Assembly: GCA_951406725.2 (NCBI GenBank)
Contig: OX597822.1
Coordinates: 87,234,001 to 87,298,000, forward strand
DNA: 64,000 bases
From: Octopus vulgaris
Lineage: Eukaryota
Reading direction: 5' to 3'
Shown here: piece after piece, positions 25,478 through 49,698 of the stretch
How positions within the stretch are numbered: position 1 is the first letter of the stretch
Layout of the letters: the number at the start of each line of letters is the position of its first letter
The notes under the pieces: model-generated
Seen by the model: only the letters and a program-made list of their open reading frames with translations
Told to the model about the DNA's origin: nothing
The model's database searches: none
Program-made: the position numbers and the translations under genes

Positions 25478-26252
25478 GTACTGTTTCATATATATCAAGG
25501 CATGAATTTCATTCAGGTATTACAAGCTCCTAGAAGTGCAAATCACATCTAAGATCCCCACGAGTCACCTGTATTTTTAAAACATGTCTATGAAAAGCAT
25601 TTTTCTGAGAGAAATGCCTTTCTACAGCATATATATATATTCTAATAAGTTTAATTAATAAAAGTACGTTTTATTAATTAAACTTACAAACATTACAAAG
25701 ATTTATTAGCAAAACATTAGCAGACGTATTCTCCTGAAAGATAGCTGGTTATTAGAATAAGCAGAAACGTTTATAAGACAAAACTAAATTCTAAAACAAA
25801 ATCAGAACTCTTAAATAGATTTACTTGATAAATTATAGAAATATGAATTCTGGTCTGTCAGTCCGGCCTGAAATTTTGACTCTGACCTCTTCATAAAAGA
25901 AGGTGAGCAAAGTTTCAGGTGTAGTTGATGGCCCAAAAAATCATCCTTTCTATTTAGAAATGTAATACTGGCTTCAAGACATGATCTTTTCCTCGATGTG
26001 TTGTACTCTACCATATACCCCCCACCCCCCACCGTTCATTTCATAATTTTCTCTCTTTCATTTACTTCATCTGATTTTAAAAACTGAACAACATGAATGA
26101 CCAACGCTAAGTCGGTTACTCTCCAATCAGCTTATTAGTTGCATTTATTAATTTAGTATTCTATTATATTTCTTGTGTATATATATGTATGCGTGTATAT
26201 ATATATACATATGTGTATGTCTATGTATTTTGTATGTATTGTGTATGTGTGT

Positions 26253-37499: not shown

Positions 37500-37600
37500 C
37501 CTTTTATATACATATTCATATACACACACACACATACACACTCACCTGTATGAGGAAGGAAAAGAATAAAAGTAATGTATTTTGTTTTCCATTTCTGTAG

Positions 37601-37796
37601 ATGGCACTTACTACCTCAGTATTGTGGATGCCACATACAATGAAGGACGTCCACGACGGGGTGTAGCAACACATCGCAATTACACACTGAAACTGTGGTG
37701 GGGACAGTGTTTATTTTGGAACAAAACTGACTCAATGTGGTCAGACAGTGGTTGTACTGACACCAGTGAATCAACACCAAAGTGGACTCAGTGCAA
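37601..37796 (+). CDS. PKD1L1: PKD1L1-like exon, GPS N-half: NGTYYLSIV...GQCLFWNKTDSMWSDSGC...TQC
   Basis: tttctgtAG / GTaaga; C-x2-W-x6-W-x4-C GPS motif. Confidence 0.95.
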
Positions 37797-38504
37797 GTAA
37801 GAGGTTTTCTCTAATTACAATCAAAAAACTTCTTTTTTATTTATTTTCTTTTCATCTTGAACCTTATCATTGATTTGACAGGTTTTCCTCGCCTATTTCC
37901 CCCATAAAACAGCTGACTTTAAATAGGCATAAGAGCTCTGTTGAAAGTTGACTTCCCTTAAACGATTCCCTATATTGAATCAGTATATCAAGTGCTCTGA
38001 AATGTTTTACTAAAATAATGTGCACAGCTAAAATAATGTACAATGTGGGTTCATTCATTCCTGCTATACAAACCATTTTCATTTGACAGTCTAGTCTGGC
38101 TAGATTGTTCATCTTAGTCTTTCCATTATAAGCTAAAGGAAACAGCTCTGCATACCTGCTGGTAATTCAATATGTGTGTGTGTGTGTATACATACACAAA
38201 TGCATATATATATATATATTTGTAAATATATATGTATATATTTATGTATATGCTAGCATGGAAAACGGACGTTAAACGATGATGATGATGTATGTATACA
38301 CACACATACACAATAGCTGTCTAAGAATCCATAAATCAGAAAAAAATGCGCTTGCATATATTGTCAGTAGAGTAGGTGTATTAATCAAAGTACTGTACAG
38401 TATTATATATCCGTAGCGGCTGATCTTAGCGATCAGTTTCGCACTAGGGGTCCAACTAAGCAGTAAGATCGATGATAATGGATCTATAATACTGCACGCT
38501 TTGA

Positions 38505-39675
38505 TCATCATCATTTAACGTCCTTGAGGCCCAATGCTGAAAAGGTGCCTTTTATGTGTCACTGGCACAAATGCCCGTTACATGACACCAGCACTGGCCA
38601 CAACTACGATTTCACTTGGCTTGACAGGTCTTCTGAAGCATAGCATATTGCCAAAGGTCTCAGTTACTAGTCATTGCCTCTGTGAGGCCCAAAATTCAAG
38701 GATCATGCTTTACTACCTCTTCCTTGGTCTACCTCTACCACAGGTTCCCTCCACAGTTAGAGATCAGCACTTCTTTACACACCTGTCCTTGTCCATACAC
38801 AGCACATGACCATACCAGCACAGTTGTCTCTCCTACACACTGCATCTGATGCTTCTTATGTGCAACTTTTCTCTCAAGAGGCTTGCACTCTGTTGTATAT
38901 GCACACAGACATTGCATATCCAGCCAAGCATACTGATTTCATTTCTTTCAAGTTTATGCATGTCCTTGGCTGTCACAGCCCATGTTTCACTGCCATGTGG
39001 CATGGCTGTTCGCACACAAGCATCATACAATCTGCCTTTCACTCAGAGGGAGAGGCCCTTTGTTGCCAGCAGAGATAGGAGCTCTCTGAATTTTGCCCAG
39101 CCTATACTTATTTTCACAGCTATGCTCTTGGAGCATCCATCTCCACTACTAACTTGGTCACCTAGATAACAGAAGCTATCTACTACCTCTTGCTTTCCCA
39201 CCTGGCATTTAATGGCGTCTATTTTCTGTATATTTTTTATGTTTATTGTACCTGTGCATCCTCCACACACAAAAGCTATTTTCCCTATTAACCTTCCTCT
39301 GATGTTTCTGCACCTCCTATGTGTCCATAGCTTACATTGGGTACATCTTATGGATTTTCGACCTATACCTTCTCTACAGATCGAGCAGCGCCATCTACCT
39401 GAAGGGATTTGTGATTTGTCTGCCTTCCTACTTACTGAGACTTGGGTTTTTGCTAGGTTAACTCTAAGGCCCTTTGATTCTAGACTTTGCTTCCATACAT
39501 GAAATTTTTTATCTAGTTCTGGTGGTGATTCAGCTATTAGAACAAGGTAAACAGCATAGAGGAGATCCCAAGGGCAGCCTGTCTTGAATTCCTTTGTTAT
39601 TACCTGGATGATTATGATGAACAAGTGGGGGCTGATGAGCGATTCTTGGTGAACCCCTACTTGTACCCTGAATTC
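38505..39675 (-). mobile_element. RTE-PHD LINE 3' part
   Basis: ORF 39043..39624 (LLYA..LVL, PHD-like C..C..C..C..H..C..C..C, FCYLGD) and KGRLYDACVRTAM. Confidence 0.88.
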
Positions 39676-39679
39676 TTTT

Positions 39680-43861: not shown

Positions 43862-44089
43862 GTTAGTATTACATTGCTTGTAACATTATTGAGATTTAAC
43901 TATATTCAATACCTACTTGTGTCTTGTGTTTGTTTAGTGCAGATATTTTCATGAAGGGGTTTCCATGACACTGTACTGACAAACAGTCACATGATATATT
44001 ATTGTGCAAATTGCTTATGGTACATAATGTAATATATGTGATATATATAATCTAATAAATATACGATATATATATATATATATATATTC

Positions 44090-45410
44090 ATAGAGGCCAG
44101 TCGCGGGAAGAATTCCTCTGCCAACGGACTCCACACCTTATCACCTTCCAGGTGGCGCCAGAGATGTCTCAACCTCAGCGCATGTCTGCGCATCATTAGC
44201 CAAGGCATTCCCAGCCCACCCTTTAACGGTTTCTGGCAGCAAATTGAGCACCTTACAATTGGCTTTCCTCCCTTCCACAAAAAGTAGAAAAGGAGTCGTT
44301 CCAACTTGTTTAGTGATGAATCAGAGCAAGGGGCAACAATCAGGCGGTAGGTGATTACAGATGCAATAAACACCTGTACCACCTCCACCCTTCCTTTCAA
44401 GGACAGAGCCCTTCCGGACCACTACTGTACTTCGGCTTCTACCTTGTCTGCCACCTCGCTCCAATTCTTCTCCATCTGAGAGTCTTGGCCAAACCAAACT
44501 CCAAGCAACTTAACAGGACCATCTGTCCAGTGCCCCACGATACTGGACAATATCGACTTGCTCCTCCAGGTGCCGAGGCACAAGCCGATGGACTTGTCCC
44601 TGTTAACTTTTGCCCTGCCACTGCTTCATATCCTCTGAGAGCATCTTCTACACGAGGTAGCTGTGCTTTGTTGGACACGATGAAGGTGACATTATCCGCA
44701 TAAGCAGAAACAGACTTACAACATCCAATTTCATTAGGGTTGCCTCCTAACTTCTCCAGCCACCGCAGTAATGGCTCTAGAGCCAACACGTACAGAAGTG
44801 GAGATAAGGGACACCCTTGATGAACTGAGCGCTTGATCGAAAATGGCTCCATCAGGTAACCGTTTATCTGGACAGTGGACTTGATGCCACTGTACATAGC
44901 GGAGATCCACCTGCGAAAGCCAGGGCCTAGCCCAGCTACTTCAAGGACCACCGCCAGGTACCAGTGGTCAACCCTATCAAATGCTTTACTTTGGTCTAAA
45001 TGGACCATTGCCCATTAGCTTTGCCAGCTAATTTTCCAACCCTGTCTAAAGTGTAGTGGAGAAAGAGAAGATTATCCTGGATCGACCTACTAGGGATTGC
45101 ACATGTCTGTGCCCTCCCTACAAGTTTCTCCATGACAGCCGTCAACCTTTTTGCTAATACCTTCGCCAAAATCTTTAACTCTACATTAAGCAGAGTTATG
45201 GACCTGTAATTACTAATACTGTCCCCCTTGCTCAGGTCTTTCTGGACCAGCGTCACCACTCCCCAGCTCACAGAACTGGGAATTCTCCCATTCTGTTGCC
45301 AGTTTGCAAGCTTGCCAGTATATCCCCGAACAAGTCCGACATACAACAATAAAACTCATAGGGCAGACCATCCATCCCCGACAACTTTTCCTCGGCGCAC
45401 TCCCTTGTTC
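44090..45410 (-). mobile_element. Tx1/L1-clade LINE RT fragment
   Basis: DGLPYEFY, NYRSITLLN.ELKILAKVLA.RL, LDQSKAFDRV, QGCPLSPLLY, AYADNV and GGLGMP motifs. Confidence 0.9.
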
Positions 45411-46012: not shown

Positions 46013-46423
46013 GACAGGCTTCTTTCTATCTACCAAATCCACTCATAAGGCTTTGGTTGACCCAAGGTTATAGTAGAAGACACTTACCCAAAATGCCATG
46101 CAGTGGGACTGAACCCAGAGCCATGTGCTTGGGAAGCAAGCTACTTACCACACAGCCACTCCTGTACCAATATATTTATATAGTATATCATTAGTATGCA
46201 TATATATAATGGACTTGATTCAGTTTCGAGCTATCAAATCCATTCACAAGGCTTTCGTCAGTTTGGGGCTGTAGTAGAAGACCTTTGCCTAAGGTGTTAT
46301 CCTGTAGGACTGAACCTGAAACCACATGATTGAGAAATAAATTTTTCAACTACACAGCCACACCTGCACCTATTAATATATATATATATATATGTGTGTG
46401 TGTTTTGTTTTCTCTATTTGCAG

Positions 46424-46533
46424 ATTACCTGATAGTATTGGCAAATTGCAGAAGATTCAACTTTGGCATAACAACTCAGGAACTTCTCCCAGTTGGTACT
46501 TAAGTCGAGTCATTTTGAATGACTTAAACTCAG
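46424..46533 (+). CDS. PKD1L1: PKD1L1-like exon (PLAT): TLPDSIGKLQKIQLWHNNSGTSPSWYLSRVILNDLNS
   Basis: tatttgcAG / GTtagt; WH.NSG.SPSW.L motif. Confidence 0.95.
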
Positions 46534-46720
46534 GTTAGTAGTTCTGATGTTCACTTCTCTCTCTCTCTCCCTATCTATTTACACCCCCACATCTCTCCAT
46601 GTTTGTATGTGTGTGTGTGTATATATATATATATATGTATAAGGGTGGAAAGGAACACACGAGTTGATATATATGAAAAAACAAGTCAAAAATAGAAAAT
46701 GCTAAGATAATTTTATAGTG

Positions 46721-46773
46721 AATCTTTCAGTACCAGTTTTGGTCATTTTGAGACCTTTTCAACTGTAACGATT
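46721..46773 (-). ncRNA. Mirror copy of the hammerhead, probably inactive (GAAA>AAAA, CCGG>CTGG)
   Basis: Reverse complement reads cag TTGAAAA GGTC tcaaaat GACC AAAA CTGG TA ctg. Confidence 0.6.
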
Positions 46774-47021
46774 AAATAATTAAATTTAGAAAAATTAGAA
46801 GAAAAGTTTTTTTAAAAGAATATTTCTATAGTAGTGTTCAGATATAAGTAGCATTCTGCCTTTCTCTGACTCCCTTGTTTGCACTTGTGTGTTCGAGGTC
46901 GAACACACAAGTGCAAACAAGGGAGTCAGAGAAAGGCAGAATGCTACTTATATCTGAACACTACTATAGAAATATTCTTTTAAAAAAACTTTTCTTCTAA
47001 TTTTTCTAAATTTAATTATTT

Positions 47022-47074
47022 AATCGTTACAGTTGAAAAGGTCTCAAAATTACCGAAACCGGTACTGAACGATT
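47022..47074 (+). ncRNA. Minimal type I hammerhead ribozyme (Penelope-like element type), U3-A8 core variant
   Basis: aatcgtt-a-cag | TTGAAAA | GGT-ctcaaaatt-ACC | GAAA | CCGG | TA | ctg-aacgatt. Stem I is 3+7 bp, stem II is present, stem III is palindromic ACCGGT, and predicted cleavage is after GUA at 47064. Confidence 0.75.
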
Positions 47075-47116
47075 CACTATAAAATTATCTTAGCATTTTC
47101 TATTTTTGACTTGTTT

Positions 47117-47172
<56 letters not shown>

Positions 47173-47378
47173 GTCAGGTCATTAAGAATGAAATGTCCAA
47201 TTTTGAACTGAAAGTTTATTTTACTTTATCTCAACGAAAAGCAATGCAGTTAATCAAAGTATGCACCTAAGTATGCACCGAACCGCTAAGTGACAGGGAC
47301 ATAAACACACCAGCATCTGTTGTCAAGCAATGCTAGGGGGACAATCACAGGCACACAAACATACACGCACGCACACAT

Positions 47379-47419
<41 letters not shown>

Positions 47420-47742
47420 ACAGGCTTCTTTCAGTTTCTGTCTACCAAATCCACTCACAAGGCTTTGGTCGGCCCGAGGCTATAGTAGAAGACACTTGCC
47501 CAAGGTGCCACGCAGTGGGACTGAACCCGGAACCTTGTGGTTGGTAAGCAAGCTACTTACCACACAGCCACTCCTGCGCCTATATTATGTATTGAGTCCT
47601 TCTTTATTTTGAAGGTGGTATGATTTGGTTGTAATTTCTAACTGATCAAGTGAACTATAAAGATGTAGTAAAGCCATGCTATATCATTTCTTTTCAGCAA
47701 TAAATCTGTGGCCATGTAAGAAATTGTTATTGTTATTTGTAG

Positions 47743-47849
47743 GTCAGACATATTATTTCATTAGTGAACGTTGGTTTTCTGTGAGCAAAGATGATGGCAG
47801 AGTTGAACGTGAGCTGTGGGCTGCAAAAGATAATGTTGGATTTAATACA
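47743..47849 (+). CDS. PKD1L1: PKD1L1-like exon (PLAT end): GQTYYFISERWFSVSKDDGRVERELWAAKDNVGFNT
   Basis: tttgtAG / GTaagt; Y.F...RW.....DG..ER motif. Confidence 0.95.
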
Positions 47850-48350: not shown

Positions 48351-48524
48351 ATATTCTTTGCTAAAGGTGCTCAATACATTGCTGATTACCATTTGTGGAC
48401 TTCAATCATAACTAAACCACCACACAGTCGATTCACTAGAGCACAGAGAGTATCTGTTTGCTTGACATTACTCATGGGTTACATGTCCCTGAATGCATTG
48501 TGGTACCATTTTGTCTCAAAAGAG
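48351..48524 (+). CDS. PKD1L1: PKD1L1-like exon (TM2): ...DYHLWTSIITKPPHSRFTRAQRVSVCLTLL...
   Basis: tgttgtAG / GTagag; polycystin-1 signature H.W.S...P..SRFTR.QR. Confidence 0.95.
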
Positions 48525-49698
48525 GTAGAGTGCTTTTTGTTTATCTTTAAAAAAAATTTCACTTCATGTGGGAAGAAATTTAAAAACTAATTGCTTTAAT
48601 TAGTAACAAGAGCATTATATTATATACTTTATTAATGTATATGTCTGTGTTAAGTGTGCTGATATGTAGCAATGAAATATTGGCAGTAAAAACAAGGGAT
48701 CAGCTCAAGTTTGATTCACTGAATAAATGTGTATGGAGGCCCCAGGATTTCACTTCCCCAAAGAACTTGGTTCTTTGGAGGAGTGAAACAGATTGTGTTT
48801 TATAGAATAAGTGAGCACAATTGAACAAAATCTTTAAACGAGTGTATATTGTGCTTATAAGCTCTGTAGAAATCTTCATAGAAATAGAAATATAGTGGAG
48901 AAAATATCTGAATAGTGTAAGATGTCTCTTAAGTGTGAGTTCATTGGCTGTACTCTCCAAATGAAATTTGACAGATGAAATGATACAAAAACGAATGGTA
49001 AAATATATGGGAAATGAGTTGTTTTATAGATCTTCTTCACTTACTAATATATAGATAAGTCAACAAGAAATTCCATGACATTCTAGAAATAGCAACTAAC
49101 TCCCAACCAAATCACATTCTAATGCATTTATAAATGAAACACAAACTGAACAGTTAATATAAAAAACTAATGCAATGGTCATAGTTGGGGCACTTTTGAT
49201 CATAGTTTTGCTCAATCAAAGCTGACCTGGGGCTAAACCACACTAACCTATATATAAAAATGTTGAAGTGATTTTTAATAACTTTTTTTATTCTTGTGAA
49301 AGTACTAATTGAATATTTTGTGTTCTTAGACTAGCTCTAAATGATTCAAAACACACTGGATCTCTTGAGAGTTGCTTATGAACAAAAGTTCTATAAGATC
49401 TTTTCTCTTCAAAGAATAGTTTTCTACAATGGCTGTTCCACTCTACAGATTATTTAGTTTTAAGTTTACACCTTTGGGTTGTGTCCCTGAACAATTTTGC
49501 TTGTTCCAATTTCCTACCGAAATTACCAGTATAAAGGCATCCGGCTTTAAAACAAACAAACAAACAATTGTTTTAACAAAAAAAATAAGCATGTAAAATA
49601 ATAAAAGAAAAGAAAAAACAACTTAGTGAAAAAAAAACACAAGATAGCTTCTACTTAATTCTAATTGCTAAACATCATCTTTGATTTTTAACTTTCAG

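What the first reader, a model, noticed from the sequence alone, without database searches (positions are those of the whole stretch)
47022..47074. Intronic hammerhead ribozyme with a non-canonical U3-A8 core, on the sense strand of the PKD1L1-like pre-mRNA
Seen in sequence: complete hammerhead topology. Stem I is cag/ctg, extended past a bulged A by aatcgtt/aacgatt. The core is UUGAAAA, stem II is GGU/ACC, then GAAA, a palindromic minimal stem III (ACCGGU) and a GUA cleavage triplet. Established: C3-G8 is the tertiary pair of the active hammerhead, and U3-A8 is its compensatory variant. Minimal type I hammerheads with a palindromic stem III are characteristic of Penelope-like retroelement pseudo-LTRs and are thought to act as dimers. 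Standard CUGANGA searches would miss this one. Inference: this is a Penelope-type ribozyme family in this genome, and this copy could cleave the host intron between two PLAT exons.
Basis: partly seen in the sequence, partly recalled or inferred. Interest (0 to 1): 0.85.

Follow-up and report, generated by a model that had tools for sequence, protein, structure and literature searches.

The report
Transposon hammerhead locked in a hairpin
This is a real hammerhead-ribozyme motif, one of about 3,300 similar copies in the genome tied to a young Penelope-type jumping gene, and here it sits in one arm of a 230-base inverted repeat inside an intron, so it is predicted to be folded away and likely does not cut the host RNA; the odd core letters have been described before, so it is ordinary.

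Summary
Observation confirmed: a type I minimal hammerhead with a U3-A8 core and palindromic stem III lies at 47030-47067 (+), cut site after 47064, in an intron between two PLAT-type exons of a polycystin-1-family gene. The motif is the right arm of a 230+230 bp inverted pLTR pair in (TA)n; the sense RNA folds as one hairpin, and forcing the hammerhead fold costs 58 kcal/mol. This copy also has a rare change that breaks stem II (6 copies), and no second sense copy lies within 184 kb. Its perfect stem I extension rests on a change not shared by the family. U3-A8 in Penelope hammerheads and close opposite-strand pairs were published in 2014. Intron cleavage is unlikely (about 4%). Side result: 19 of 19 inverted pairs have one tailed and one tail-less arm. 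New member of a known kind; interest 0.2.

The parts
47030..47067 (+). Type I minimal hammerhead motif, U3-A8 core, palindromic stem III; predicted cut after 47064
47051..47051 (+). Rare change (T; family G) that breaks the fourth pair of stem II; stem II hairpin +0.9 against -4.0 kcal/mol for the family form
47070..47070 (+). Change (C; family A) that makes the stem I extension look perfect in this copy
46899..47128 (+). Right arm: 5'-truncated Penelope-like pLTR without tail, running into (TA)n
46667..46896 (-). Left arm: second pLTR copy, head to head, 98% complementary to the right arm, 2 nt between arms
46640..46666 (-). 27-nt pLTR 'tail', on the left arm only
46728..46765 (-). Second hammerhead copy on the minus strand, with G12 changed to A and one stem III change (both at CpG); likely inactive
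   Evidence: role of G12 is established knowledge
46620..46639 (.). (TA)n target, left side
47129..47171 (.). (TA)n target, right side
46424..46533 (+). Host exon, PLAT domain part (PF01477, E 6.5e-6)
47743..47849 (+). Host exon in frame with the one before; reads as the end of the PLAT domain by recalled motif, no Pfam hit on its own
46534..47742 (+). Host intron (GT..AG) that holds the insertion

Best explanation
The motif is the hammerhead of a young Penelope-like retrotransposon's terminal repeat, which sits as a head-to-head pair of truncated repeats in a (TA)n run of a host intron and is predicted to be silent there because the two arms would pair into one 230-bp hairpin. Shown: identity with the repeat of RT+GIY-YIG elements, the inverted pair, the two changes against the family, no second sense copy nearby. 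Computed: the hairpin wins by 58 kcal/mol. Inferred: the left arm is transcribed first, so the hairpin would start to close about 130 nt before the ribozyme emerges; a 2-bp stem III cannot close alone, so cutting would need a partner RNA paired through ACCGGU, or the element's protein. In the parent element the ribozyme likely acts in tandem transcripts as a slow dimer- or protein-dependent cutter; the insertion itself was likely made by target-primed reverse transcription from both cut strands on uncut pLTR RNA.
For: Inverted repeat 46667-46896/46899-47128, 98%. Fold of 46630-47140: -364 kcal/mol, z -49. Pairing probability of stems I and II rounds to 0.0000 in all 6 intron contexts tried; cost of the hammerhead fold 58.2 kcal/mol in context, 4.8 alone; stem II forms with P 0.008 even alone. 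Each arm differs at 2 of 222 bases from family copy L007. Long copies L031, L032 carry RT (PF00078) and GIY-YIG (PF01541) coding DNA upstream of the same repeat, with CX4CXXC linker and CCHH pattern. 1,765 exact and 3,345 looser U3-A8 copies. No other copy in the window or 60 kb on each side. Published: metazoan minimal PLE hammerheads inactive as monomers and weak as dimers (PMC4209133); a PLE hammerhead that cut only with the element's protein and was not needed for insertion in vitro (PMC11167929); inverted 5'-truncated copies, one-sided tail and (TA)n targets are standard PLE anatomy (PMC8557442).
Against: No cleavage was measured; all folding is equilibrium prediction and ignores editing, helicases and bound proteins. 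The catalytic core letters of the + copy are intact, and U3-A8 is an active pair in other hammerheads (PMC3088659). The family is abundant, so a trans partner RNA may exist. Presence or absence of the insertion in other individuals was not tested.
Confidence: 0.88

Rival explanations
1. This copy cuts the host pre-mRNA at 47064, helped by a family RNA in trans or by the element's protein, and so lowers or alters expression of the polycystin-family gene.
For: Sense orientation and intact core; thousands of potential partners; conserved intronic hammerheads are known in amniotes.
Against: 58 kcal/mol penalty, broken stem II pair, no cis partner in 184 kb; the insertion is young (2 of 222 differences per arm) and shows no sign of retention for the host.
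Confidence: 0.04
2. At family level the hammerhead is mainly an RNA pairing or protein-binding element and rarely cuts; the copies are made from uncut RNA. Not exclusive with the best explanation.
For: Arms here begin 165 nt upstream of the cut site, as do many short arms. Copies whose 5' end falls at the cut site are not enriched: 1 truncation among 2 hits at the site against 1 among 7 hits at a control site 10 nt on; 2 in all among 301 copies caught by three patterns. Same negative in the anole element.
Against: Stem II keeps pairing across subfamilies (closing pair A-U 6, G-C 4, G-U 4 of 14) and only 61 of 3,408 copies have an unmatched 3-8 pair, as expected of a kept catalytic fold, though young kin share letters anyway. 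The three patterns are not exhaustive.
Confidence: 0.35
3. The insertion matters to the host as a long double-stranded hairpin (editing target, small-RNA source or splicing modifier), not as a ribozyme.
For: 230-bp, 98% hairpin in a 1.2-kb intron, about 110 nt from the upstream exon.
Against: No data show an effect; such pairs are common in this genome (one search list), so most must be tolerated.
Confidence: 0.12
4. Chance motif or assembly artefact.
For: Rfam score far below cut-off; long palindromes can be mis-assembled.
Against: 2 hits in 150 shuffles; 1,765 exact copies; the two arms differ at four sites and in the tail, unlike a fold-back artefact; the repeat is in contigs of four public runs.
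Confidence: 0.01

Closest known systems
Minimal type I hammerheads of metazoan Penelope-like elements, including the U3-A8 variant of Schistosoma mansoni Cercyon elements (Cervera and de la Pena 2014, PMC4209133)
   Same: In the pLTR; type I; short stem I; palindromic stem III; U3-A8 core; mostly in truncated copies; pairs 100-700 bp apart on opposite strands.
   Different: Stem II is 4 bp with no extra base after A9 (7-8 bp and an extra base in Schistosoma); the family is uniform and young; U3-A8 is nearly fixed (3,345 against 2 C3-G8).
Neptune/Nematis-type EN+ PLEs (as defined in Craig et al. 2021, PMC8557442)
   Same: RT then C-terminal GIY-YIG; CX4CXXC linker; CCHH pattern; inverted 5'-truncated copies; one-sided tail; (TA)n targets.
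   Different: Tail is 27 nt (30-40 in the paper); clade not placed by a tree.
PAc Poseidon element of the green anole (Frangieh et al. 2024, PMC11167929)
   Same: Two fixed copy ends that bound a tail; AT-rich targets; no copy or read ends at the hammerhead site.
   Different: PAc has C3-G8 and its ORF starts in stem II; here the long frame seems to start after the tail and the linker finger marks another clade.
Conserved intronic hammerheads of amniotes (RECK, C10orf118; Rfam HH9)
   Same: Type I hammerhead in a host intron, sense strand.
   Different: Those are single, conserved across species and cut as monomers in vitro; this is a young repeat copy with a 2-bp stem III, locked in an inverted repeat, 20.8 of 52 bits on HH9.
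Non-LTR retrozymes (bioRxiv 10.64898/2026.07.22.740005)
   Same: Type I hammerhead related to PLE pLTRs.
   Different: Retrozymes are head-to-tail arrays that supply cis partners; this is a head-to-head pair. A separate C3-G8 array family of 359-nt period exists in this genome.

Membership tests
Hammerhead ribozyme, type I | Conserved core (3-9, G12 A13 A14, U16.1 H17) around a three-way junction closed in stem I | tested here: met
Hammerhead ribozyme, type I | Watson-Crick pair between positions 3 and 8 | tested here: met
   U3-A8 in 3,345 and C3-G8 in 2 of 3,408 copies; other families in the genome use C3-G8 with the same palindrome (224 pattern matches). No real 3-8 covariation inside this family.
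Hammerhead ribozyme, type I | Stem II supported by covariation | tested here: inconclusive
   Closing pair A-U/G-C/G-U in 14 of 14; 94.6% of stem II cells paired; copies are kin and were picked by a core pattern, so stem I invariance is by construction
Hammerhead ribozyme, type I | Active fold reachable in the natural transcript (this copy) | tested here: not met
   computed only: 58.2 kcal/mol penalty, P about 0
Hammerhead ribozyme, type I | Site-specific self-cleavage | not testable with these tools
   only contigs were served
EN+ Penelope-like element | RT followed by GIY-YIG endonuclease upstream of the repeat | tested here: met
   PF00078 E 5.4e-7 and PF01541 E 3.1e-5 in L032; frames are broken in the copies read; the window copy itself has no coding part
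EN+ Penelope-like element | pLTR formed by partial tandem, inverted 5'-truncated copies, optional tail | tested here: met
   tandem L044 with 4,386-bp unit; 19 of 19 inverted pairs with one tail
EN+ Penelope-like element | Target-site duplication | tested here: inconclusive
   both flanks are (TA)n, so a duplication cannot be read
Neptune/Nematis clade | CX2-5CxxC linker and CCHH motif | tested here: met
   definition
Neptune/Nematis clade | RT phylogeny with named clade members | not tested
   no tree was built
Domesticated intronic hammerhead (HH9/HH10 kind) | Single copy, strong monomer fold, Rfam cut-off | tested here: not met
Domesticated intronic hammerhead (HH9/HH10 kind) | Kept at the orthologous intron across species | not testable with these tools
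   no relatives of G000 are held
Polycystin-1 family host gene | GPS, PLAT and post-PLAT segment in order on one strand | tested here: met
   GPS 37576-37797, PLAT, polycystin-1 match E 4e-9 at 48351-48548; PKD1L1 orthology not tested

The most novel reading that the evidence does not exclude
The family records an obligatory asymmetric double priming: one Penelope protein-RNA complex primes both cut target strands on uncut pLTR RNA at two fixed sites 27 nt apart, so that every inverted pair gets exactly one tail (19 of 19), and the U3-A8 hammerhead with its ACCGGU palindrome serves to hold or pair the template RNA more than to cut it. Thousands of young copies make this testable from the genome alone.
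Probability: 0.25. Interest if true: 0.5.

Novelty: new member of a known kind. Interest (0 to 1): 0.2.

Why it matters
As found, it matters little: a new, large family of a described ribozyme variant, with this copy a likely passenger. It is a useful caution that a sense-strand intronic hammerhead must be folded with its flanks. The family could serve two open questions on Penelope elements: whether their hammerheads cut in vivo, and how the inverted pair with a one-sided tail is made.

Tried and rejected
Rfam at gathering score: no hammerhead; the MIR4208/MIR6426 hits at 46835-46961 only reflect the palindrome and are far under cut-off. Within-family 3-8 covariation: not found, 2 C3-G8 of 3,408. 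Conserved long stem I extension: rejected, middle pair in 1 of 14, helix I cells 79% paired. Copy 5' ends at the cut site as a genomic trace of cleavage: not enriched. Public runs: no RNA holder listed on record, only contigs; 4 of 24 listed runs were laid on 46899-47118 and gave no joints and no end pile-ups, which contigs cannot show anyway; six A>G places in run X18 come largely from one divergent contig and have no matched DNA, so they are not taken as editing. Earlier findings of the scan: none. Lunse, Weinberg and Breaker (RNA Biol 14:1499) is not held; I know it only by its title in a reference list, and its tables or the unseen supplements of PMC4209133 may already list this family. 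A MITE reading of the palindrome was dropped because both arms are 3' ends of an RT element and their lengths vary from copy to copy.

Full report
Observation. A strict descriptor found this one site in the window and 2 hits in 150 shuffled windows. Rfam does not call it at cut-off but HH9 touches it weakly, 20.8 of 52 bits, E 0.027, and a second site on the minus strand at 46712-46776, 16.6 bits. The host is a polycystin-1-family gene on the + strand: GPS at 37576-37797, PLAT in exon 46424-46533, a polycystin-1 match at 48351-48548, E 4e-9. The exon at 47743-47849 continues the frame but has no Pfam hit alone. PKD1L1 orthology was not tested.

The motif lies in the right arm of an inverted repeat, 46667-46896 and 46899-47128, 230 bp, 98% complementary, 2 nt apart, with (TA)n on both sides. 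The left arm holds a second hammerhead on the minus strand and 27 more bases, the tail. Contigs of four public runs show the family letters at 47051 and 47070 at nearly all depth. The window's stem II form occurs in 6 places in the genome, the family form in 1,765.

The family. A DNA search gave 41 near-full matches among 40 scored of 1,060 candidates. Two long copies, L031 and L032, hold broken frames with RT (PF00078) and GIY-YIG (PF01541) upstream of the same repeat; the endonuclease part has a CX4CXXC linker and a CCHH pattern, the marks of Neptune/Nematis-type elements (PMC8557442, passages). L044 is a partial tandem with a 4,386-bp unit whose long frame seems to start just after the tail. 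With a looser pattern, 3,345 copies have U3-A8, 2 have C3-G8 and 61 an unmatched pair, of 3,408: U3-A8 is the family state, not a quirk of this copy, and there is no 3-8 covariation within it. Other families in the genome use C3-G8 with the same palindrome (224 pattern matches). In 14 aligned copies, chosen by core pattern from about 30 inspected, the closing pair of stem II is A-U 6, G-C 4, G-U 4, and stem II cells are 94.6% paired; the distal stem I extension is not kept. These copies are kin, so this is weak support.

Can this copy cut the intron? Folding says no. 46630-47140 folds as one hairpin, -364 kcal/mol, z -49. In six intron contexts, from a nascent end at 47070 to the whole intron, the pairing probabilities of stems I and II round to 0.0000; forcing the hammerhead costs 58.2 kcal/mol in context and 4.8 alone. 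Even alone, stem II of this copy forms with P 0.008 (+0.9 kcal/mol against -4.0 for the family form). A family-type copy folded against itself keeps stem II and pairs between strands through the palindrome, as the dimer model wants; the window form does not. No other copy lies in the window or within 60 kb on either side, so there is no cis partner. By inference the left arm is made first and the hairpin zips outward from 46897 before the ribozyme appears. These are equilibrium predictions; editing, helicases or proteins could loosen the hairpin, and a trans partner is possible, hence 4% and not zero.

Does the family cut? Unknown. Published: metazoan minimal PLE hammerheads are inactive as monomers and weak as dimers (PMC4209133, parts 1-2 of 4 read); the anole PLE hammerhead cut only with the element's protein, was dispensable for insertion in vitro, and no read ends were seen at its site (PMC11167929, parts 1-2 of 4 read). 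I looked for genomic copies that begin at the cut site. In the window's subfamily (293 copies), two patterns caught 8 more, of which 2 are truncations at the site within microhomology and 6 are point changes; the matched control 10 nt on caught 7, of which 1 is a truncation. No enrichment; the patterns are not exhaustive. Both arms here, and many short arms, start about 165-190 nt upstream of the site, so their templates were uncut. Public data gave only contigs, which cannot show ends.

How the insertion arose. In 19 of 19 outward-facing inverted pairs from L046-L063, picked by neighbourhood in the first 100 of 1,765 listed matches and not by tail state, one arm ends at repeat position 230 and the other at 251-257; the window fits. 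Independent choice at even odds would give this about twice in a million. The tail-less end merges into the (TA)n target at an AT run of the repeat. One-sided tails are described in words (PMC8557442; PMC3846280, passages), and two priming sites that bound the tail were seen in vitro, with no strand difference noted. An obligatory one-each rule is my inference and is the most novel reading.

Comparison and novelty. U3-A8 was reported in nature and as active in vitro in other hammerheads (PMC3088659, passages) and in Penelope elements, about 1,300 hits in Schistosoma, together with close opposite-strand pairs. Searches for the variant returned only that paper or nothing. I take the animal to be a cephalopod from recall of genome size and repeats, untested; a search joining 'hammerhead ribozyme', 'octopus' and 'Penelope' listed one work, on other PLE clades, and a 2026 octopus repeat annotation lists Penelope families with no use of the word ribozyme in its main text (PMC13282606, passages). 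So this family's hammerhead may be unreported, but the key 2016-17 paper on such variants was not available and supplements were not seen. Reviews PMC6765202 and PMC6155905 (passages) and the retrozyme preprint (part 1 of 5) give the background. It works like a dimer-type PLE hammerhead and meets the structural tests for that family; it fails the tests for a domesticated intronic ribozyme.

Verdict. Real feature; new member of a known kind; this copy is likely a silent passenger. Interest 0.2.

Noticed in passing
L046-L063 and window 46640-47128: Every inverted pLTR pair examined (19 of 19) has one tailed and one tail-less arm; either may be the longer arm.
   Followed up: partly
window 46893-46902; L004, L030, L049, L054, L057: Inversion points of short pairs cluster near one place of the repeat, about 165-190 nt upstream of the cut site, where the family has a tiny 3-bp hairpin; may mark a transcript start or a fold-back hot spot. 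One pair folds back at the stem III palindrome itself (G000:C1:32782129-32782196, listing).
   Followed up: no
L071 810-2828 (G000:C1:20002745-20004763) and other arrays: Head-to-tail arrays of a 359-nt unit, each with a C3-G8 type I hammerhead and the same palindrome: a likely non-LTR retrozyme family, some arrays switching strand.
   Followed up: partly
listing, e.g. L064-L067: A third hammerhead family with C3-G8 and a long stem II region, dispersed.
   Followed up: no
window 46995-47032: The 5' strand of stem I ends a pyrimidine-rich run in CAG and looks like a 3' splice site; in Drosophila virilis Penelope the pLTR intron ends at helix I. No joint was seen in contigs; untested.
   Followed up: no
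window 25857-25930 +: mir-87 precursor above Rfam cut-off, 52.3 bits.
   Followed up: no
window 39043-39678 - and 43999-45355 -: Two decayed LINE-type RT fragments antisense in introns of the host gene (PF00078; one followed by a PHD-like stretch).
   Followed up: partly
window 46023-46173, 46195-46332, 47406-47585: Three copies of a short interspersed repeat next to (TA)n runs, one in the same intron as the hammerhead.
   Followed up: no
L037 2942-4618 -: A 559-aa open RT+GIY-YIG stretch of a related Penelope family, about 71% identical in DNA to the young family.
   Followed up: partly
L042 1501 and L043: The only two C3-G8 copies of this family, one in each subfamily; L042 is one arm of an inverted pair whose other arm keeps U3-A8.
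   Followed up: partly
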